DNA of 64,000 bases from Euryarchaeota archaeon UBA605. Lineage in GTDB: Archaea > Thermoplasmatota > Poseidoniia > Poseidoniales > Thalassarchaeaceae. Location of the stretch: the NCBI GenBank assembly GCA_002504905.1, contig DATY01000013.1:76688-140687 (forward strand), in the 5' to 3' direction. Every line of letters begins with the position of its first letter. Positions within the stretch are counted from its first letter, which is position 1. Positions 40,603-50,773 of the stretch are shown here, one piece after another. Under the pieces are notes generated by a model, which made no database searches, was not told where the DNA came from, and saw only the letters and a list, made by a program, of their open reading frames with translations. The translations under genes were made by a program, and so were the position numbers.

Positions 40603-40752
40603 TTAATCCATAAGTCCTTCATTGTAATTAATCAATAAGTATGGTTTTAGTTGGTATTTTTTATTTTTCATCACTCCCCCCTATCTAATTAATCACGAAC
40701 TTTTACCCCCAACATTCTTACACGATTTCTATACCGAATAGACTTGTTAATC

Positions 40753-43700
40753 ATGCGTATGCTAACTCCTGTCTTCGTATTGTCAATTTTGATTATGATG
40801 AGTTTATCTCCGATGTTTGTCGGTTCTGAATTACAGGATAATGAAAATAGAGATGATATAGGGCCTAAATCCTTGATTGATTTTGAGATTTCATCAATAG
40901 AAATTGGAAATCAAACAAGGGATGCTATGGAGTGGACTCAACCAGATGGCTCCATTATTGAATACATTATGAGGGATGAAACAATCCAAATTAATGTAAC
41001 ATATACTCAAGCAGGCTCATCCGGTCAACCAGCAGCGGCAGAAGGCTATCTTCAGATTTGGCATCCTGTAGGTTTTATGATAGCTGAATATAACGTTAGT
41101 ATGCTTCTTTCGGGTTTCCAATCTTTGAAAGCAACTTTTGTCTGGACGCCGAGTTCAGCTCACAGTGCTTTGGATGAGAATGGATATCTAGTTGGTGGAA
41201 TTATTCTAAGAGGCATAGTTGATGGAGGATTAGCCGATGATACAGAATCAAATAATGAAATGGATCGTTATATCCCAGTTGCAATGTGGAACGATCCTAT
41301 GGAAAATGGTTTTTGTGGTGATGTTGATGGAGATAATGTAATTGATTGTACAAATCAACTACAAGCAAATGTACCTACTTGGGTAGGTGCTGGATACGAT
41401 TCATCTGGACAATTATCATCAGACCCTGATAGTTTTGGCCACTGGAGAATGGAAAATTCATCTAGTGAAGAAGGAGAGAATCATTGGAGAGTTTCCCGTC
41501 CTGGGGCTAATTATGCCAGCAATCGACATGATAGACTCTGGTGGGGCTGGTTTACTCCTTTTGATAATTGTAATGAACCCGGACATGGACTTGGACTTGG
41601 AACTCTAGATTCTGCGGTCAGTTCAAACTATGGGAATAATTTCTGTAAGATTCGACTCAAAGGTTTCGATTTCTTAACAATCCAATTGGTGACAAATGCA
41701 TGGGGTGAGATGGCAGCAGGTGATGAAATGAGAATTGAAGCCGACTCAGGAGGTGTTAAAGAATTCTACAATTTTTCTTCCCAGTCACTTTCAACTACTG
41801 GTGAATGGACCCAATTAGTTTGGAATATGACTGAAGTCCACTCCTCTGCCGAGTATACTTTAGCTTTCAAATTTGATTCTAATAGCTCATTCTCAAGTCA
41901 GGGGATACAAATAGATTCATTCAAAATTTTTGCTATTGAGAAAGTACCTCAATATACTCTAGATTTTGATTGTGATGATCCTCTTCCAAATTCTTACTTA
42001 GTAGTTCCATCTGATCCGAATCCTCCTTCATTATATTGCAATATCAAGAATAATGGATATGTGGATATTACATTGAGACTTTATACAGAAGTAACTAATC
42101 GTTCATGGATGTATGATTTCCCATTGAGAATTGATTCCAATAACCCTGTAGATCATGATAATTATGTAATTACTAAAGTCATTCCTGCTCTCAGTTACAT
42201 GGATACTTGGTTCAATCTTACAATTCCTGACGCTTCTGGAGTACAAGATTTGTATTGGGATGTTTGGGTAAATGATGGAGTTACTAACCTCACTAAAGAG
42301 TATGTCAGTTTACCGGTTTCGGTAATGCCTGCCTATTCAAGTAAATTAAGGCAGGTCACGCTACAGAATCCTGCGGCAACTCTTGAGCCAGGAGCAAGTG
42401 GGGCAATTCCTATGTCTTTCAAAAATACAGGTAATCAAATAGCAACATGGAGTTTTGATGCAGCATGGCCTAATATCGACTGGGTAGATAATGCAGACAT
42501 TAAATGGTATTACAATGGTTCACAGGTTTCTACTTTAGAACTAGCCTTAACTGATGATGTATTAATTGATGCAGTAATCACAGCACCGCCTCAAGTTTCT
42601 CCTGGAACGTATTCAGTTACATTACTTGCGTCGGGTGTCTCTCCGGCTCAATATCTTGCTGAATGGCAAGTGAATATTGTTGTTCCAGTTTACTCTGATT
42701 TAGTTATAGAGCCAGAAGTTTTCAATTTGGTAGCCCCCGCAGATAATTCTCTGAGGTTAATAGAAATTAGGTTAGTTAATAATGGAAATTCACCTGAATC
42801 ATTCGATTTAAGTATTCAAGCCGACTGGAAATTAGGATTGGAAATGAATACTGAACAGACGTTTGAAATAGATCCATTCGGAGGAGATACTACTGTAACT
42901 ATGCTTCTTCCAATGCCATACGGTATTGTAGCTGAAACTTATTCAATAATATTGACTGCGTCTAGTAAATTAAACTCTGAATATCAAATGTCATCTCAAA
43001 TGTTATTGACTGTTCCGGAAACAAATTTAGTTGAAGTTGAAGATCTAAATATGTTAGATGAGGTTTTCCGCGGTGGTGACGACCCTAGAACTGTCAATTG
43101 GCGCATATGGAATAGAGGAAATGTTGCAGATTCTTTTGAAATATCCTTTGATCATTTTTCCGATGTTTCAGCTTCAGCAGTAGGTCTAAATGATGGCAAG
43201 ACACCATATATTAATCCTGGAGAGTCTCATAACTTAACTGTAAGATATTCATTTAGCTCATTGACTTTCGGCGATAGAACAATTTCAATGACCGCAACTA
43301 GCGTTCTCTCTCAGAATTCTGAATCTTTAGTTTCTGGCACAGGTAATGCTGATTTTCAGGTAGGTGCTCAAGGTTGGATTACTTTGACTCCTCCAGCGAT
43401 TGTTGAGATTAGAGAGGGTGGCAATGATGTTGAGATTACTTTTACTGTCAAGAACGAGCATCCTACAGACGCTCAGTTACTAAGAGCAGACATCGATAGA
43501 AATTCTAATATTTTCTATAATATTGTCGACGCTAGAGTTGATACCGGAGATCAAAACTTTGTTTTGGAAGCCCAATCTATGAGAGAAATTACAGTCTATC
43601 TAACAGCAACTGATGAAAATCTGAGGAATTTAAATAATAATTCTGAGATATTCAAGTTACCTCTTAATGTCGATGGAGATATAGACAAAGTTTCAATGTC

Positions 43701-44184
43701 TGCTAGTATTCAAATGTTCAAAATCGATCCAGTCGATCCAGGGACTAATGCAGGAGAATATGCTGGAATAGCTGGTAATATTATATTCATATTAATCGGT
43801 TTAGTGATTTTAGTTGCTGTTTTATTAGCAACTTTCAGAATAATGCGAAGCGCCTCTTCGCCTTTAGAGGAAATATCAACTTTTGATGACTATGAGTATA
43901 CTCAAGGGAATAATTTCAACCCACCCTCTTTACCAACAGCCCCTGAATTACCTTCTGAGGACAAAGTTGCAAATTCAATGTATGGCGGTTCTGAAGAAAT
44001 ATTCAAACAACCTGCACCACCATTACCTCCTGTACAAAGTCCTGACGAAGAATTACCAGAGGAAGTAGAAAATAATCCACCCAGTGCGCCTGAGGTTCCT
44101 GAATCAGGGTTGCCAGACGGATGGACTATGGAACAATGGGTTCATTACGGTCAAGCATGGATTGATCAGCAGAATGAATCTTAA
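40753..44184 (+). CDS. Large membrane-anchored surface protein with Ig-like (CARDB/NEW3-like) repeats
   Basis: Signal peptide, repeated N.GN...F.L Ig-like modules, C-terminal TM, Pro-rich linker and GLPDGWTMEQWVHYG tail. Confidence 0.75.
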   Translation: MRMLTPVFVLSILIMMSLSPMFVGSELQDNENRDDIGPKSLIDFEISSIEIGNQTRDAMEWTQPDGSIIEYIMRDETIQINVTYTQAGSSGQPAAAEGYLQIWHPVGFMIAEYNVSMLLSGFQSLKATFVWTPSSAHSALDENGYLVGGIILRGIVDGGLADDTESNNEMDRYIPVAMWNDPMENGFCGDVDGDNVIDCTNQLQANVPTWVGAGYDSSGQLSSDPDSFGHWRMENSSSEEGENHWRVSRPGANYASNRHDRLWWGWFTPFDNCNEPGHGLGLGTLDSAVSSNYGNNFCKIRLKGFDFLTIQLVTNAWGEMAAGDEMRIEADSGGVKEFYNFSSQSLSTTGEWTQLVWNMTEVHSSAEYTLAFKFDSNSSFSSQGIQIDSFKIFAIEKVPQYTLDFDCDDPLPNSYLVVPSDPNPPSLYCNIKNNGYVDITLRLYTEVTNRSWMYDFPLRIDSNNPVDHDNYVITKVIPALSYMDTWFNLTIPDASGVQDLYWDVWVNDGVTNLTKEYVSLPVSVMPAYSSKLRQVTLQNPAATLEPGASGAIPMSFKNTGNQIATWSFDAAWPNIDWVDNADIKWYYNGSQVSTLELALTDDVLIDAVITAPPQVSPGTYSVTLLASGVSPAQYLAEWQVNIVVPVYSDLVIEPEVFNLVAPADNSLRLIEIRLVNNGNSPESFDLSIQADWKLGLEMNTEQTFEIDPFGGDTTVTMLLPMPYGIVAETYSIILTASSKLNSEYQMSSQMLLTVPETNLVEVEDLNMLDEVFRGGDDPRTVNWRIWNRGNVADSFEISFDHFSDVSASAVGLNDGKTPYINPGESHNLTVRYSFSSLTFGDRTISMTATSVLSQNSESLVSGTGNADFQVGAQGWITLTPPAIVEIREGGNDVEITFTVKNEHPTDAQLLRADIDRNSNIFYNIVDARVDTGDQNFVLEAQSMREITVYLTATDENLRNLNNNSEIFKLPLNVDGDIDKVSMSASIQMFKIDPVDPGTNAGEYAGIAGNIIFILIGLVILVAVLLATFRIMRSASSPLEEISTFDDYEYTQGNNFNPPSLPTAPELPSEDKVANSMYGGSEEIFKQPAPPLPPVQSPDEELPEEVENNPPSAPEVPESGLPDGWTMEQWVHYGQAWIDQQNES

Positions 44185-45982: not shown

Positions 45983-48160
45983 ATGTCGGCCGTCCGTTCT
46001 CTCTTAGTGCTGTTTGGTTCTCAATCTGGTAATGCAGAAGATCTTGCATCTAAAATTGGAAAACTGGCTCCAAAATATGGTCTTGAAGCGACAGTAAAAG
46101 GGATGGATGAAATTCAGATTAGTGATATGGCGGAGCAAAAAAGAATAATGATTTGCTGTAGTACTTGGGGTGAAGGAGAGCAGCCTGATAATGCTGAGGA
46201 CTTGTGGATTTCTGCAAACGCTGATGACTCTCCTTCAATGAATGGTGTAAATTTTTCAGTACTAGCACTTGGAGATACCTCGTATGAGTTATTTTGTGAA
46301 TCCGGTAAAGAATGGGACTCTTGGTTAGAGTCTAAGGGCGGTTTCAGAATAAGTCAACGTGTCGATTGTGACGTTGATTATGAGGCCCCTGCTAAATTAT
46401 GGATAGATGAGACTTTAGCAAGAATGGGCGCAGTGGATGACTCCGGTATTTTCCAAGAAAGTTTAGTTGAAGACGTTAAGAGTAATGCTTCTGGTAATAT
46501 TTCGAATAAAATAGAACCAGAGTCGAAAGTTTCAGAATCATCAATTGAGATTTCAACAGATGGTGACCGTTCAATGACTATTCTCTTTGGTTCTCAATCT
46601 GGAAACGCGGAAGGTCTAGCTGCAAAATTTGCAAAGCAAGCTGCTAATTATGGTTTAGATGCTGAAGTTGCTGATATGGATGGCTTCGATTTATCATCAT
46701 TATCATCGAAAAAGAGAGTACTGATAATCTGCTCTACATGGGGTGAAGGAGAGCAACCTGATAATGCTGAGGAATTATGGCAGAAAGCAGTTTCAGCATC
46801 TCCAGGCTTACTTAATGGAGTTCATTATTCAGTTCTAGCACTTGGAGATACCTCGTATGATTTATTTTGTGAATCAGGTAAGGAGTGGGATAAAAGATTC
46901 GAAGAGTTAGGAGCCACAAGACTGGTTGACCGAGTAGATTGTGATGTAGATTTTGATAAAATTTCACAAGCTTGGGCCGAAGAAGCACTTGCTTCAATGG
47001 CGGCAGTTGATGGAGAAGGTATCTTCCATGAAGAAATGGTTCAGGCAATTAAAGACTCAATTACATCTGACTCTGTTGGAGCCTCTGGTGAAGATGGCTT
47101 TACGGTCCCAGATATCAAGTCAGAATCCATTCGTGCTGAAATTACTATTTTTAGATATGATCCTTCTTCCTCAACAACTGGGAAAGATACCTGGATTTGT
47201 GCATTACCCGGACATATGTCTATTCTAGATGTTCTCAGAACTCTGAAAAATACTCAGGATGGCTCACTAACATTCAGAGACGGTTCATTAGATGATCCAA
47301 CTACCGCGATTACAATTAATGGTAGGCATGTCCTACCTGGTAATCTCAGACTAGATCTGGCGGCCCCAATCCGTGACGGTGGTATCAGTATCAGAATAGA
47401 ACCGCTAAATGGTTTTGAAGTAATCCGAGATTTAGTAGTCGATCATTGGGCTCTTGAAACTAAGAGAGAGTCAAGTAAACCTTGGATGGTATCTGCAACT
47501 AGAAAGGGATTGAGTACTCCTCAAGGTGCAATTGGTTCTATGTCCCCTCTAGTAGCCTCAGAGCTTCATTCAATGACTGATATTCACAGTTATCCGATTC
47601 TTCATTCTTCTTCCGATGCAACTTCCCATTCTGAAGAATATCTCGGACCATCTATTATCTCTCATGCATGGGCGAGAAGAAATGATCCACGTATCTCTTC
47701 TAGTAAAAAGAAGGAAATTGAGAATCTCCTTGATTCTTCAAATGGAATTAAAGCAGAAACTGATTTATCCTCAATAAGAAGGCAAGGTAAAGGTACTGTA
47801 ATTCATGATGCGCTGTTAAACTGTAAAACTTCTACTTTGGCAAGAACAGGCTATAATGGAAGACATGGAAAGCATGTTTGGTGGTATGCTGTAACGGTCA
47901 AAAGTAGCGGTAAAGTGAATGATACGGTATTGTATAGGCAAGTTCTCGGTCCTGTAGGGTTGATAGGAAATCTTTTCTCTGGAGTCACTGCTAGAATGGT
48001 ACTTGGCTTCACTAGAAACGGAGGAAAAATGATCAATGATATTTTAGCTCTAATAGCTCCTCCAGCAGGGCTCGGTAAGATGCCTCGTCAGTTTAATTCT
48101 TCTGTGAAAAATCACCATGAAGTGGTAGCAATATTCAATGAGATGGATGGTCGTTTTTAA
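45983..48160 (+). CDS. Double flavodoxin fused to a degenerate (Cys-less) SdhB/FrdB-like domain
   Basis: Two GSQSGNAE / STWGEGEQPDNA / LGDTSY..FC FMN-binding domains, then IFRYDP...ILDVL...DGSLTFR...ING...IEPL.GFEVIRDLVVD matching SdhB but without Fe-S cysteines. Confidence 0.8.
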   Translation: MSAVRSLLVLFGSQSGNAEDLASKIGKLAPKYGLEATVKGMDEIQISDMAEQKRIMICCSTWGEGEQPDNAEDLWISANADDSPSMNGVNFSVLALGDTSYELFCESGKEWDSWLESKGGFRISQRVDCDVDYEAPAKLWIDETLARMGAVDDSGIFQESLVEDVKSNASGNISNKIEPESKVSESSIEISTDGDRSMTILFGSQSGNAEGLAAKFAKQAANYGLDAEVADMDGFDLSSLSSKKRVLIICSTWGEGEQPDNAEELWQKAVSASPGLLNGVHYSVLALGDTSYDLFCESGKEWDKRFEELGATRLVDRVDCDVDFDKISQAWAEEALASMAAVDGEGIFHEEMVQAIKDSITSDSVGASGEDGFTVPDIKSESIRAEITIFRYDPSSSTTGKDTWICALPGHMSILDVLRTLKNTQDGSLTFRDGSLDDPTTAITINGRHVLPGNLRLDLAAPIRDGGISIRIEPLNGFEVIRDLVVDHWALETKRESSKPWMVSATRKGLSTPQGAIGSMSPLVASELHSMTDIHSYPILHSSSDATSHSEEYLGPSIISHAWARRNDPRISSSKKKEIENLLDSSNGIKAETDLSSIRRQGKGTVIHDALLNCKTSTLARTGYNGRHGKHVWWYAVTVKSSGKVNDTVLYRQVLGPVGLIGNLFSGVTARMVLGFTRNGGKMINDILALIAPPAGLGKMPRQFNSSVKNHHEVVAIFNEMDGRF
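46166..46860 (+). repeat. Internal direct repeats between the two flavodoxin domains (573-nt period)
   Basis: 26-nt perfect repeat at 46262-46287 / 46835-46860 and a 35-nt repeat with 1 mismatch at 46166-46200 / 46739-46773. Confidence 0.9.
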
Positions 48161-49020
48161 TGGCTCTAAAATACGCATATCATCCTGGAAATGTCGCACA
48201 CTCAGGATCTCCAGAAGTCGCAGATTCTATGGTCCCTCTAGCTAAGTCATTGGGAATCAAACTCACATTTCTTGACGGTGCAACAAGTTGTGGTGCTGGA
48301 ATAATTAGGCAAGCTAACAAAAAGTTACAATTAGCCTTGAATGCAAGAATTTTTGCTCAGGCTGAATCGCTAGGACTGGAAATAATGACTCCCTGCGCTT
48401 CCACAGCGGGTAACCTTTCCGAAGATTTATTGCAATTGAAGTCGGATCCAATTTTACTAGCAGAGATTAACGAGATATTGGCAAAGACATGCGGAATGAA
48501 GTTCACGGGAGAAACTTCGGTGAATCATTTGTTGCATGTAATTGTAGATGAAATCGGAATTGATAAAGTCAAATCTATGGTAGTGAACCCTATTGATTTT
48601 AGAGTTGCTTCATATTATGGACCTAACATGCAACAAGATGGATTCTGTGGAGGAGATGACGTCTATGATCCAAATTATATGGAACAGTTGATGAGTGTTT
48701 TAGGAGGAGTACCAGTTGCATGGGACTCAAGAATGCAAAGTGTTGGTGCACCTAGTCTTCTATCTGAAGAACCAACAGTTCTAAGATTATCTGCCTCAGT
48801 ACTTAATGATGCTAAATCAGAAGGTGCTCAATTAATAGTTAGTGCCTGTAATTTATCCCATTCAGTAATGGATATATATCAAGGCAAAGCATCCCAAAGA
48901 ACTGGATTAAGGACAAATATTCCAGTTGTTCATCTTTGTGAAATCTTGACCTTTGCATTAGGGCATTATAATACTAGATTCGCCCAATTAAGGACAAGAG
49001 TAATGGTCATTGGAGATTAA
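48160..49020 (+). CDS. HdrB/SdhE-like two-CCG-domain protein with degenerate cysteine motifs
   Basis: YAYHPG, SCGAG, TPCAS, VASYYG, VSACNLSH and IPVVHLCEIL..ALG follow the HdrB layout. Start overlaps the upstream stop (TAATG). Confidence 0.8.
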   Translation: MALKYAYHPGNVAHSGSPEVADSMVPLAKSLGIKLTFLDGATSCGAGIIRQANKKLQLALNARIFAQAESLGLEIMTPCASTAGNLSEDLLQLKSDPILLAEINEILAKTCGMKFTGETSVNHLLHVIVDEIGIDKVKSMVVNPIDFRVASYYGPNMQQDGFCGGDDVYDPNYMEQLMSVLGGVPVAWDSRMQSVGAPSLLSEEPTVLRLSASVLNDAKSEGAQLIVSACNLSHSVMDIYQGKASQRTGLRTNIPVVHLCEILTFALGHYNTRFAQLRTRVMVIGD

Positions 49021-49021
49021 T

Positions 49022-50773
49022 TTATTCTTTTTCCCCATATTCTTCTAGTCCTCTCTGTCCAGTTGGCCTATACCTCTTTGCCTCAATTTCAATTGAGTTA
49101 TGTTTTTCTATATTTCCAACTTCATTCAAGTCAATTTGTTTCATTTTGGGGCGATAATTCTCTCTTTCTTCTTTAATAAATTTAGTCGCTGAGATCACTT
49201 CATTGTCCTGTATAATATCAAAATTCTGAATATTAGACAGGTCAATGTGATTTTTTCTTGGTAATTTTTTCCTAACTCTTTGAACTGATCTATACATATT
49301 TCGCTCCTTTTTTTGGGCTGCTAGTCTCATATTTTCATCACGGGTACCTTCTGCAATCAAGACCATAACTTCTCCTTCTCTATGTCTTCCTGTTCTCCCC
49401 CTTCTTTGTATTGTCCTAATCTCACTCCCCACTGGTTCGTAGAATATCACAAGATCAGCACTGGGGATGTCTAGTCCTTCTTCGGCAACAGAAGTCGCTA
49501 CCAAAACATTGTATTCTCCTTCTCTGAATTTATTCAAAACATCAATCTGCTCTCTTGGTTTGAGTCCTTTCTTCCCTGCTCTTTCGGACTGACCTATCAT
49601 TTGAATTGACTTCACTCCATTCAAGTCAATCAATGCTTTTTCTAAAGCCTCAACTGTATTCCTGAACGAAGCAAAAACAATAATCTTGCTATTAGGATCT
49701 CTTCTTAATCTATGTCTTACTAACCTTCTTACGGTTCCAACCTTATTATGAATTTCTTCCATATTCATTAATGATTTTCTCAATTCAATTATTCTCTTAT
49801 CCTTATGAAAGTTCTGAATAGATTTACTAGGGTTATTCCTCATTTCTGCAGATATATCTAAAAATTCTCTTGCAGCTGTTATTCCTTGAGTTAGAAGGTG
49901 ATTAATTAGATGATTTAAAGTCATAGCGGTTGCTATATTCGATACAGAGGAGTATCCCCTAACATCACCTAATTTAATCGAATGTTGTGCCCTACTCATG
50001 GCTTCTTTTAATCCTCCAAATGAGGGTGGTCCAGTCCTAATATACTTCCCGAGTCTTCTTTCTCTATCTACAATACCATTAATCCATAGTTCTAAAGGAT
50101 TAACCAATATTTGGATTTTTTCAGGAACATTAACTAGTATTTCCTCTATTTCTAAACCGGAAAGATAATTTTTCAACATTGGGTCATCCGACTTTCTGAT
50201 ATGGATCCTTTCAATTTCTAGTCTACTACAAATTTCATTGACCATCATTGCATTAGATCCAGGGCTAGCAGTGGCGCCGAAAATAATGCCATTTTTTGAG
50301 GAGGCATTGAACATCTCAGCTGATTGAACCATTGCATGTTTGCCAGTAGAATGATGTGCTTCATCTAAAATCAATAATGAACATTCTTCCAATGATAAGA
50401 TTCCATTTAACACATCATTACGTACAACCTGAGGAGTTGCCACTATTATCTTCGATTTTTTCCATAAACCCTCACGTTTCTTAGGGAGATTACCTCCTGT
50501 AATTGATACTGCCTCAACATTTTTGATAACTTTCTTCAAGTCTTTTAGATGTTGATCTACTAATGCACTGGTCGGCGCAATAAATAAGATCCATCCATTT
50601 CTTTCGCGTAATTTTTCAGCAATTAACATCCAAGAAACAGCAGTTTTTCCTGCTGCTGTAGGTAGCACAAGTAACATTGATCCAGATAGTGCCTCATCTA
50701 CTGCCTCTAATTGATAAGCTCGGCCTTCAATTACGTCTTCAACTAACTCAGTATGTTGAACCACGTGCCTCAT
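49022..50773 (-). CDS. hef: Hef/FANCM-like SF2 helicase (no C-terminal ERCC4 nuclease domain)
   Basis: RAYQ, LPTAAGKT, LDEAHH, TASPG, ATSVAEEGLDIP and QRRGRTGR motifs. Confidence 0.88.
   Translation of the reverse strand: MRHVVQHTELVEDVIEGRAYQLEAVDEALSGSMLLVLPTAAGKTAVSWMLIAEKLRERNGWILFIAPTSALVDQHLKDLKKVIKNVEAVSITGGNLPKKREGLWKKSKIIVATPQVVRNDVLNGILSLEECSLLILDEAHHSTGKHAMVQSAEMFNASSKNGIIFGATASPGSNAMMVNEICSRLEIERIHIRKSDDPMLKNYLSGLEIEEILVNVPEKIQILVNPLELWINGIVDRERRLGKYIRTGPPSFGGLKEAMSRAQHSIKLGDVRGYSSVSNIATAMTLNHLINHLLTQGITAAREFLDISAEMRNNPSKSIQNFHKDKRIIELRKSLMNMEEIHNKVGTVRRLVRHRLRRDPNSKIIVFASFRNTVEALEKALIDLNGVKSIQMIGQSERAGKKGLKPREQIDVLNKFREGEYNVLVATSVAEEGLDIPSADLVIFYEPVGSEIRTIQRRGRTGRHREGEVMVLIAEGTRDENMRLAAQKKERNMYRSVQRVRKKLPRKNHIDLSNIQNFDIIQDNEVISATKFIKEERENYRPKMKQIDLNEVGNIEKHNSIEIEAKRYRPTGQRGLEEYGEKE

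What the first reader, a model, noticed from the sequence alone, without database searches (positions are those of the whole stretch)
45983..48160. Tandem flavodoxins fused to an SdhB-like domain stripped of all Fe-S cysteines: candidate iron-free electron wire
Seen in sequence: two CysJ/MioC-type flavodoxin domains (about 45995-46430 and 46574-47005) precede a domain (from about 47129) that tracks the succinate dehydrogenase/fumarate reductase Fe-S subunit closely outside the cluster-binding motifs (IFRYDP, ILDVL, DGSLTFR, ING, IEPL.GFEVIRDLVVD, KPW, YLGP, DPR). The [2Fe-2S] motif (normally SCREGICGSC...LAC) reads DGSLDDPTTA...VLPG. The [4Fe-4S] motif (CILCxCCxxxCP) reads IHSYPILHSSSDA, and the [3Fe-4S] motif (CxxxxxCxxxCP) is also gone. 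Only 2 Cys remain in the whole domain. A tail resembling HdrC/type-E SdhB (RHGKHVWW...SGKVND) follows. Established: SdhB needs about 11 Cys ligands, and marine microbes replace Fe-S ferredoxin with flavodoxin under iron limitation. Inference: the fold is kept as a docking scaffold while FMN domains replace the Fe-S chain. This would be an iron-sparing SDH/Hdr-like complex or a repurposed electron-transfer module; I know of no description of such a system.
Basis: partly seen in the sequence, partly recalled or inferred. Interest (0 to 1): 0.92.

Follow-up and report, generated by a model that had tools for sequence, protein, structure and literature searches.

The report
Cluster-free SdhB/SdhE pair, tethered flavodoxins
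All Marine Group II archaea sampled carry a strongly conserved two-gene module built from succinate-dehydrogenase parts that has lost its iron-sulfur ligands and instead carries fused flavodoxin or ferredoxin domains, the outermost of which near-identical strains swap; its function is untested.

Summary
ORF 45983-48160 (725 aa) consists of two CysJ-type flavodoxin domains with intact FMN motifs, an SdhB-like two-domain body in which every cluster cysteine is replaced, and a tail homologous to that of long-form (type-E-like) SdhB. It overlaps by one base (TAATG) a 286-aa HdrB/SdhE-like gene that keeps 3 of 10 CCG cysteines.

The pair is not decaying. It is present in 95 of 95 sampled Poseidoniales genomes and absent elsewhere. 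Synteny is fixed, and dN/dS is about 0.01-0.06 in most segments of both genes.

The genome has a complete, cysteine-intact sdhCAB elsewhere. Many relatives carry a [4Fe-4S] ferredoxin head. Tethered FMN domains cannot replace a buried cluster chain in place.

The data support a cluster-free scaffold carrying one or two tethered carriers. The outermost carrier is a cassette, ferredoxin or flavodoxin, exchanged between genomic backgrounds that are 94-97% identical.

New lead: an order-specific SdhA-like flavoprotein has the same phyletic pattern and has lost its dicarboxylate-binding residues. It is a candidate third subunit, but this is unproven.

No paper describing the module was found. Earlier agents of this scan reported the same module in other genomes.

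The parts
45983..48160 (+). Fusion gene (725 aa): Fld1 - linker - Fld2 - linker - cluster-free SdhB-like body - conserved tail ('SdhB*')
   Evidence: ORF; domain hits; orthologues 59-93% identical in 80 species representatives
45998..46417 (+). Flavodoxin module 1 (about residues 6-145), the swappable 'head'. FMN motifs GSQSGNAE 12-19, STWGEGEQPDNAE 60-72 and LGDTSY 96-101 are present.
   Evidence: It is replaced by a [4Fe-4S]-type ferredoxin or is absent in relatives. Fld1 modules form a single paralogue clade. By eye, roughly two-thirds of its residues match the Fld domain of this genome's CysJ-like reductase (not computed).
46574..47002 (+). Flavodoxin module 2 (about residues 198-340), the mostly constant carrier. 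The same three FMN motifs sit at 203-210, 251-263 and 287-292.
   Evidence: Pfam best stretch 200-323. Matches the E. coli CysJ FMN domain 1YKG at E 2e-24 with the motifs aligned. dN/dS 0.01-0.06.
47135..47452 (+). SdhB N-domain homologue ([2Fe-2S] domain fold, about residues 385-490) without ligands. The former cluster loop reads FRDGSLDDPTTA...VLPG.
   Evidence: Fer2_3 E 1.2e-10; Cys column census; AF2 pLDDT 72-85; lowest dN/dS of all segments, 0.011-0.038
47453..47827 (+). SdhB C-domain homologue (about residues 491-615). The former [4Fe-4S] motif now reads IHSYPILHSSSDA (534-546). The former [3Fe-4S]/second [4Fe-4S] motif now reads ETDLSSIRRQG (592-602).
   Evidence: The replacement residues S544 and E592 are invariant in 194 sequences (renumbered).
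47828..48157 (+). Conserved C-terminal tail (about residues 616-725: GRHGKHVWWY...SSGKVNDT...GFTRNGG...APPAGLGKMP...HHEVVAIFNEMDGRF). Probably the element that binds SdhE*.
   Evidence: Homologous to the tail of cysteine-intact long-form SdhB. AF2 cannot fold it alone (pLDDT 27-42). dN/dS 0.014-0.047. No PDB match. The binding role is inferred.
48160..49020 (+). HdrB/SdhE-like CCG protein (286 aa, 'SdhE*'), translationally coupled through the TAATG overlap at 48158-48162. Seven of the 10 cluster Cys are replaced.
   Evidence: TIGR03288 E 1e-36 and MFR SdhE E 2.5e-32, both far below cut-off. PDB HdrB 8rvv_B E 3e-32. AF2 pLDDT 87, Foldseek TM 0.87 and rmsd 2.4 A to HdrB. Cys census over 81 orthologues. 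Overlap read. The gene follows the fusion gene in 81 of 83 loci, with a 1-nt overlap in 68.

Best explanation
The two genes encode a heterodimeric scaffold, SdhB*-SdhE*, without iron-sulfur clusters. It descends from the iron-sulfur subunit and the CCG 'anchor' subunit of a non-classical (type-E / Tfr-like) succinate dehydrogenase or fumarate reductase. In the ancestor of Poseidoniales both proteins lost their cluster ligands but kept their folds and their mutual contact (the long SdhB tail, translational coupling).

The only recognisable redox centres left are the fused N-terminal carriers: a mostly constant FMN flavodoxin (Fld2) next to the scaffold, and an outer 'head' that is a second flavodoxin (as here), a [4Fe-4S]-type ferredoxin, or absent.

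The module therefore most likely works as a docking platform that holds mobile one-electron carriers next to a partner enzyme, not as a wire through the SdhB body. Electrons would pass between an external low-potential partner and the head, then to Fld2, then to a partner bound where SdhA normally sits. The best partner candidate is the order-specific, catalytically remodelled SdhA-like flavoprotein encoded elsewhere in the genome.

The ferredoxin/flavodoxin head is an exchangeable cassette. It fits a strain-level iron-economy polymorphism; this window carries the all-flavin allele.

Shown: domain architecture, ligand loss, fold retention, selection, distribution, cassette exchange.
Inferred: heterodimer formation, direction and partners of electron flow, the iron rationale, the SdhA* partnership.
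For: Architecture and ligand loss.

Folds kept: SdhB-like by profile and Foldseek. SdhE* models with pLDDT 87 and TM 0.87 to HdrB.

FMN motifs are intact in both flavodoxins.

Functional constraint: dN/dS 0.01-0.06 in most segments and never above 0.13 outside the linkers, including the cysteine-less ones; it is lowest in the SdhB N-domain, which in complex II contacts SdhA (the contact is established knowledge). The replacement residues are themselves invariant.

Core gene pair: 95/95 sampled Poseidoniales, 0/10 in the sister order, none elsewhere in the phylum. 311 species representatives matched. Synteny thermosome-SdhB*-SdhE*-helicase-rpl3 is fixed.

Coupling: 1-nt overlap in 68 of 81 loci. 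The tail is unfoldable alone.

Swappable head: Fld-Fld 39, Fd-Fld 21 and Fld 17 among 80 species. At least 24 Fd/Fld switches on the C-domain tree of 188 proteins. Fld1 forms one old paralogue clade. Proteins 98% identical in the C-terminal part differ only in the head. The DNA flanks are 94-97% identical around a 591- versus 405-nt replaced segment.

Partner candidate SdhA*: present in 91/95 Poseidoniales and none outside at E<=1e-45. It is orthologous across both families and distinct from SdhA and NadB. It has lost the covalent-FAD His and the His355/Arg390 equivalents.

Possible electron donors in the genome: a 2-oxoacid:ferredoxin oxidoreductase alpha subunit and a CysJ-like diflavin reductase.
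Against: No direct evidence that SdhB* and SdhE* bind each other, or bind SdhA*. A multimer prediction could not be run.

The rate-covariation test was underpowered and inconclusive: SdhA*-SdhB* r 0.09-0.35, against 0.17-0.48 for the SdhB*-SdhE* positive control.

SdhA* is never adjacent to the pair. Many unrelated order-specific core genes would share its phyletic profile.

SdhE* keeps three invariant original Cys (C44, C79, C230) plus an invariant C163 and nearly invariant H8 and H14. It may therefore still hold a metal or a small cluster.

The former [4Fe-4S] and [3Fe-4S] pockets of SdhB* are lined by invariant H, S, D, E and R residues, which could bind some other cofactor.

No link between head type and environmental iron was tested.
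Confidence: 0.45

Rival explanations
1. The SdhB*/SdhE* body is still an electron conductor or catalyst. It would use non-cysteine ligands (His, Asp, Glu, Ser) or the residual cysteines to hold a different metal centre or an organic cofactor, so the complex would be a true oxidoreductase with a new active site.
For: Invariant polar residues sit at the former cluster sites of SdhB*: H529, S544 and D545 at the old [4Fe-4S] site, and E592, D594 and R600 at the old third-cluster site. SdhE* keeps C44, C79 and C230 and has gained an invariant C163 and nearly invariant H8/H14. Selection on these segments is very strong.
Against: No known cofactor motif was recognised by Pfam or NCBIfam. The [2Fe-2S] loop, the first station of any wire coming from SdhA, varies in sequence between the two families. 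Invariant charged residues are equally well explained as salt bridges filling the emptied pockets.
Confidence: 0.2
2. SdhB* docks on the cell's ordinary SdhA in place of the normal SdhB. This would give a soluble or peripheral flavodoxin/ferredoxin-linked fumarate reductase or succinate dehydrogenase, which is the first reader's iron-sparing SDH.
For: The SdhA-facing N-domain is the most constrained segment. The canonical SdhA is intact. A swap of ferredoxin for flavodoxin is a known iron-sparing move (established knowledge).
Against: The canonical sdhCAB operon is complete and its SdhB has all cluster cysteines, so nothing needs replacing. With no cluster in SdhB*, the FAD of SdhA would be shielded from a tethered FMN by the SdhB* body itself. 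A dedicated divergent SdhA paralogue with the same distribution exists.
Confidence: 0.12
3. The module has a redox-sensing or regulatory, non-catalytic role. The carrier domains would report the redox state of the ferredoxin/flavodoxin pool, and the cluster-free scaffold would pass this on by binding some target.
For: The pseudo-enzyme character of both the SdhB* and SdhE* bodies. No catalytic partner is encoded in the operon.
Against: No DNA-binding or signalling domain was found. Tandem carriers and interchangeable ferredoxin/flavodoxin heads are typical of electron transfer chains, not sensors.
Confidence: 0.1
4. The module is a decaying remnant, a pseudogene in progress, of an ancestral SDH or Tfr.
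For: Loss of all catalytic ligands.
Against: dN/dS 0.01-0.06 in most segments. Intact ORFs in 95/95 sampled genomes of an order with small genomes of 1.2-2.2 Mb. Invariant replacement residues. Conserved translational coupling.
Confidence: 0.01

Closest known systems
Non-classical (type E) succinate:quinone oxidoreductase SdhABEF of Sulfolobus/Acidianus, and the SdhABE methylmenaquinol:fumarate reductase of Campylobacter/Wolinella (long-form SdhB plus CCG subunit SdhE)
   Same: A two-domain SdhB fold with a C-terminal tail, followed by a two-CCG-domain HdrB-like subunit. The best NCBIfam relatives are dhsB/PRK12576/PRK12577 and MFR SdhE. The tail is homologous to long-form SdhB. SdhE of Sulfolobus solfataricus is reported to bind a [4Fe-4S] cluster through its CCG domains (PMC2754724 abstract).
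   Different: All SdhB cluster cysteines and 7 of 10 CCG cysteines are gone. No sdhA or sdhF lies in the operon. One or two carrier domains are fused to the N-terminus. Scores lie far below every family cut-off (54 bits against 88 for dhsB; 112 against 500 for MFR SdhE).
Thiol:fumarate reductase TfrAB and heterodisulfide reductase HdrBC of methanogens
   Same: An SdhB-like or ferredoxin-like subunit is combined with an HdrB-type CCG module. SdhE* superposes on solved HdrB at TM 0.87. There are weak TfrB hits.
   Different: HdrB binds two non-cubane [4Fe-4S] clusters with 10 Cys, of which only 3 remain here. The tail shows no detectable similarity to solved HdrC. Poseidoniales are aerobic heterotrophs with no CoM/CoB chemistry (established knowledge).
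FMN domains of diflavin reductases (CysJ, cytochrome P450 reductase) and MioC-type flavodoxins
   Same: Both flavodoxin modules match the cysJ/MioC models and the solved CysJ FMN domain, with intact phosphate-loop and ring-stacking motifs. As in diflavin reductases, the FMN domain would swing on a linker between donor and acceptor.
   Different: No FAD/NADPH (FNR-like) domain follows. Instead the carriers are fused to a cluster-free SdhB homologue. The genome has a separate, complete CysJ-like protein.
Ferredoxin-to-flavodoxin replacement under iron limitation in marine phototrophs (isiB/fld versus petF)
   Same: An Fe-S carrier and an FMN carrier are functionally interchangeable. Here the exchange happens at the head position between near-identical strains.
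   Different: Here it is a domain cassette inside a fusion protein, fixed per genome, not a regulated pair of genes. A link to iron has not been tested.

Membership tests
Succinate dehydrogenase / fumarate reductase iron-sulfur subunit (SdhB/FrdB, TIGR00384) | Two-domain fold: N-terminal plant-ferredoxin-like domain plus C-terminal helical domain | tested here: met
   Fer2_3 above the Pfam cut-off. Profile match to solved SdhB/FrdB over positions 6-243, E 1.5e-16. Top 31 Foldseek hits are all SdhB/FrdB (the model has modest confidence).
Succinate dehydrogenase / fumarate reductase iron-sulfur subunit (SdhB/FrdB, TIGR00384) | Eleven or so cysteines ligating [2Fe-2S], [4Fe-4S] and [3Fe-4S]/[4Fe-4S] | tested here: not met
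   All 12 conserved Cys columns are non-Cys in the window protein and in 194 relatives; the exception is one column where 27 relatives have a single Cys.
Succinate dehydrogenase / fumarate reductase iron-sulfur subunit (SdhB/FrdB, TIGR00384) | Score above the curated family cut-off | tested here: not met
   54.1 bits against a cut-off of 88. The genome's canonical SdhB scores 141.6.
Succinate dehydrogenase / fumarate reductase iron-sulfur subunit (SdhB/FrdB, TIGR00384) | Encoded with and bound to an SdhA flavoprotein | tested here: inconclusive
   No sdhA in the operon. A divergent SdhA-like gene with the same phyletic profile exists elsewhere. The covariation test was inconclusive.
HdrB / SdhE CCG-domain proteins (PF02754, TIGR03288, NF042965) | Duplicated CCG-domain fold | tested here: met
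   The CCG Pfam hit is above cut-off for the N-terminal repeat only. Full-length match to solved HdrB, E 3e-32. Model TM 0.87, rmsd 2.4 A.
HdrB / SdhE CCG-domain proteins (PF02754, TIGR03288, NF042965) | Two CX(n)CCGX(m)CXXC motifs (10 Cys) binding Fe-S clusters | tested here: not met
   Seven of 10 are replaced by invariant N, S, T, P, S, V, S. Only C44, C79 and C230 are kept.
Flavodoxin (PF00258; CysJ/MioC type) | Flavodoxin fold with the FMN phosphate loop (S/T-x-S/T-G-N) and the aromatic stacking loops | tested here: met
   Two stretches, 210.9 bits in all against a cut-off of 25. Motifs aligned to the CysJ FMN domain 1YKG. Motif positions. FMN binding itself was not tested.
Sulfite reductase flavoprotein CysJ (TIGR01931) | FMN domain followed by FAD and NADPH binding domains; score above cut-off | tested here: not met
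   279 bits against a cut-off of 668, and only profile positions 45-204 are matched. No FNR-like domain is present.

The most novel reading that the evidence does not exclude
Poseidoniales run a second, order-specific 'shadow complex II'. In it all three subunits of an ancestral type-E SDH/Tfr have been rebuilt. SdhA* keeps FAD but has a new substrate. SdhB* and SdhE* carry no iron-sulfur cluster. Electrons leave or enter through tethered flavodoxin or ferredoxin domains. In alleles like the one in this window the whole oxidoreductase would be flavin-only, free of iron, and strains would toggle its outermost carrier between an iron and a non-iron version according to iron supply.
Probability: 0.2. 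Interest if true: 0.9.

Novelty: new variant of a known kind. Interest (0 to 1): 0.72.

Why it matters
Poseidoniales (Marine Group II) are among the most abundant archaea of the surface ocean and remain uncultured, so their core genes of unknown function matter. This module is in every genome sampled and under very strong selection, yet databases label it only as "flavodoxin domain-containing protein" or "SDH-like Fe-S protein".

If the scaffold reading is right, it is a clear natural case of an Fe-S electron-transfer subunit turned into a cluster-free docking platform.

It would also be the first case I know of in which ferredoxin and flavodoxin alternate as a domain cassette within one protein among near-identical strains. 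That makes iron economy in a heterotrophic archaeon directly testable by plotting allele frequency against dissolved iron in ocean metagenomes.

The candidate partner SdhA* gives a concrete starting point for biochemistry.

Tried and rejected
1. A complex prediction using a natural in-frame SdhB*-SdhE* fusion ORF (987 aa, L111) was abandoned. MAFFT misaligned the separate SdhB* and SdhE* rows onto each other. That fusion also lacks the last 29 tail residues and may be an assembly artefact.

2. Rate covariation between SdhA*, SdhB*, Fld2, SdhE* and four neighbour controls was run on 30-36 genomes. Even the SdhB*-SdhE* positive control was weak, so the result is inconclusive.

3. The HdrC-like reading of the tail found no PDB match at E<=10.

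4. NadB (C26:89943-91580) as the orphan flavoprotein partner was rejected. It scores above the nadB cut-off and is an ordinary L-aspartate oxidase.

5. The pseudogene reading is rejected by dN/dS and distribution.

7. Four literature searches and two papers checked found no description of the module.

8. The neighbours of SdhA*, an unknown 473-aa membrane protein and a PlsC-type acyltransferase, gave no functional hint.

9. Antisense and overlapping small ORFs inside the gene (46812-47048 on the minus strand, 46953-47228 on the plus strand, 47851-48036 on the minus strand) were treated as chance ORFs inside a strongly constrained coding region.
Full report
**What is in the window.**
The finding's coordinates are exact. 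A 725-aa ORF runs from 45983 to 48160 on the + strand. It is preceded by a GGTGAT Shine-Dalgarno-like sequence. Its TAA stop overlaps the ATG of a 286-aa ORF at 48160-49020 (TAATG).

Pfam and NCBIfam find two CysJ/MioC-type flavodoxin domains (Flavodoxin_1 E 1e-62). They also find a Fer2_3 domain at residues 387-489 and an SdhB/FrdB match over 391-578 that lies far below the family cut-off (54 bits against 88).

Residues 385-725 contain only two cysteines, C406 and C614.

The downstream protein matches HdrB (TIGR03288 E 1e-36) and MFR SdhE (E 2.5e-32), again far below cut-off.

**Ligand loss.**
The protein was aligned with cysteine-intact long-form SdhBs and with this genome's own SdhB. All 12 conserved cluster-cysteine columns are non-Cys in the window protein and in 194 family members. 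The only exception is one [2Fe-2S] column in which 27 members have a single Cys.

- The [2Fe-2S] loop reads FRDGSLDDPTTA...VLPG.
- The [4Fe-4S] motif reads IHSYPILHSSSDA.
- The third-cluster motif reads ETDLSSIRRQG.
- Some replacements are themselves invariant (S544, E592).

In the downstream protein, 7 of the 10 HdrB cluster cysteines are replaced by residues that are invariant or nearly so (N11, S43, T82, P155, S194, V195, S233) across 81 orthologues. C44, C79 and C230 are kept, and a new C163 is conserved. H8 and H14 are nearly invariant. A small residual metal site in this protein therefore cannot be excluded.

**Folds are kept.**
A profile of the family matches solved SdhB/FrdB chains over both domains (E 1.5e-16).

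An AlphaFold2 model of residues 375-725 has pLDDT 65-85 over the SdhB-like part but 27-42 over the last 100 residues. Its top 31 Foldseek hits are all SdhB/FrdB chains at probability 1.00. Global TM-scores are low (0.27-0.41) because the domain arrangement is poorly defined.

The downstream protein models confidently (pLDDT 87, pTM 0.87). It superposes on solved HdrB at TM 0.87 and rmsd 2.4 A.

The tail aligns with the tail of cysteine-intact long-form SdhB of the PRK12577/PRK12576 type. It matches no solved chain, HdrC included.

The tail is highly conserved, cannot be folded alone, and precedes a translationally coupled gene. I therefore infer that it binds the CCG protein. This is not shown.

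**Not a decaying copy.**
The family profile finds the gene in 95 of 95 sampled Poseidoniales genomes (both families). It finds none in 10 genomes of the sister order. Elsewhere in Thermoplasmatota it finds only weak hits to ordinary SdhB. A degenerate-pattern scan of species representatives found 311 loci.

Synteny is fixed: thermosome, fusion gene, CCG gene, convergent helicase, then the rpl3 ribosomal operon. The CCG gene follows in 81 of 83 loci, with a one-base overlap in 68.

Pairwise dN/dS against nine relatives is about 0.01-0.06 in most segments: both flavodoxins, the cysteine-less SdhB-like domains, the tail and the CCG protein. It reaches 0.13 in the SdhB C-domain in the more distant comparisons. 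Only the inter-domain linkers are looser. dS is near saturation, so the values are approximate, but they are clearly far below 1. The lowest values are in the SdhB N-domain, which in complex II contacts SdhA (established knowledge).

**The genome does not need an SDH replacement.**
Contig C20 carries a membrane-subunit gene, an SdhA with every catalytic hallmark, and a 253-aa SdhB with all cluster cysteines, scoring 141.6 bits against the cut-off of 88. Cysteine-intact CCG proteins also exist elsewhere. The organism therefore makes Fe-S proteins normally, and the module is not "the" SDH made iron-free.

**The carriers are modular.**
Among the 80 closest species representatives the N-terminal architecture is:

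| Architecture | Count |
|---|---|
| Fld-Fld | 39 |
| Fd-Fld | 21 |
| single Fld | 17 |
| truncated or masked | 3 |

Fd-only and Fd-Fd forms also exist. The ferredoxin head has a CxxCxxC...CP motif.

On a tree of the C-terminal domain of 188 proteins, at least 24 changes between Fd-Fld and Fld-Fld are needed. Yet the Fld1 modules form essentially one clade, distinct from Fld2 (2 changes). The two head types are therefore old alleles moved around by recombination, not repeated inventions.

The exchange is seen directly. Proteins 98% identical in the C-terminal part differ only in the head. Two contigs, L113 and L114, are 94-97% identical at the DNA level on both flanks, and only a 591-nt (flavodoxin) versus 405-nt (ferredoxin) segment is non-homologous.

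Single-Fld forms look like deletions between the two repeats. For example, L017 appears by eye to join the start of Fld1 to the body of Fld2 at the shared FGSQSGNAE motif.

Both flavodoxins of the window protein have intact FMN motifs aligned to the solved CysJ FMN domain. By eye, roughly two-thirds of Fld1's residues match the FMN domain of a complete CysJ-like diflavin reductase encoded on C20 (not computed).

**A candidate third subunit.**
Besides canonical SdhA and a bona fide NadB, the genome encodes a 485-aa SdhA-family protein at C2:32197-33654. It scores far below every family cut-off.

Its orthologues occur in 91 of 95 sampled Poseidoniales and nowhere else at E<=1e-45. They are distinct from SdhA and NadB in both families.

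Aligned to E. coli FrdA, it lacks the covalent-FAD histidine and the equivalents of His355 and Arg390 (HGANRL reads HGDGYL). It also has a shortened capping domain. It cannot be a succinate, fumarate or aspartate enzyme.

All three subunits of an SDH-like ancestor therefore exist as remodelled, order-specific paralogues. The gene is never adjacent to the pair.

A rate-covariation test on 30-36 genomes was inconclusive. SdhA*-SdhB* gave r 0.09-0.35, the SdhB*-SdhE* positive control only 0.17-0.48, and controls scattered over a similar range. The partnership is a lead, not a result.

**Mechanism.**
The best-supported reading is a cluster-free SdhB*-SdhE* scaffold holding one or two tethered one-electron carriers beside a partner, most plausibly SdhA*. 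In this reading the carriers, not the SdhB body, do the electron transfer.

Possible donors encoded in the genome are a 2-oxoacid:ferredoxin oxidoreductase and the CysJ-like reductase.

This window carries the all-flavin allele. Whether iron drives the polymorphism was not tested.

The rivals are listed with their odds in the Rival explanations section: a non-Cys cofactor in the body, docking on canonical SdhA, and a sensor role.

**Comparison and novelty.**
The nearest known systems are the type-E SdhABEF and MFR SdhABE enzymes and methanogen TfrAB/HdrBC. The module shares their folds and gene order, but it fails their defining features (cluster ligands, family cut-offs). It should not be annotated as a member of any of them.

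Four full-text searches and two papers checked found no description. Sources name it only "flavodoxin domain-containing protein" or "SDH-like Fe-S protein".

Earlier agents of this scan reached the same core reading on other genomes.

**Limits.**
The SdhB* model is of modest confidence. dS is saturated for most comparisons.

Noticed in passing
own genome contig C2:32197-33654 (+), outside the window: A 485-aa SdhA/NadB-family flavoprotein specific to Poseidoniales. It lacks the covalent-FAD His and the dicarboxylate-binding His/Arg, has a short capping domain, and in this family has no recognisable SdhA C-terminal domain. It is flanked by a conserved unknown 473-aa membrane protein and a PlsC-type acyltransferase.
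   Followed up: partly
L111:2371-5334 (genome G149, contig C27): A single 987-aa ORF fuses the Fld-Fld-SdhB* gene in frame to the SdhE* gene and lacks the last 29 residues of the otherwise invariant tail. It is either a real fusion or deletion, or a MAG assembly artefact.
   Followed up: partly
own genome contig C20:67527-69377 (+), outside the window: A complete CysJ-like diflavin reductase (FMN + FAD/NADPH). Its FMN domain is the closest paralogue seen of the Fld1 head, with roughly two-thirds of residues matching by eye. It may be the evolutionary source of the head, or a redox partner.
   Followed up: no
L017 (534 aa form) and L021 (566 aa form), loci: Single-flavodoxin variants arise in two ways. 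One looks like a chimaera joining Fld1 to Fld2 at the shared FGSQSGNAE motif (unequal crossing-over). The other is a deletion of Fld2 that leaves Fld1 joined directly to SdhB*.
   Followed up: partly
window 40744-44184 (+): A 1146-aa secreted or membrane-anchored protein with only faint Ig-like hits and a proline/glutamate-rich C-terminal tail after a transmembrane segment. It is conserved upstream of the thermosome in relatives.
   Followed up: no
window 49022-50773 (-), compared with L113:7037-9610 (-): The convergent Hef-like helicase is 583 aa here, with a helicase core only. In Poseidoniaceae it is 857 aa and carries an ERCC4 nuclease domain. The nuclease domain therefore appears to be missing in this family.
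   Followed up: no
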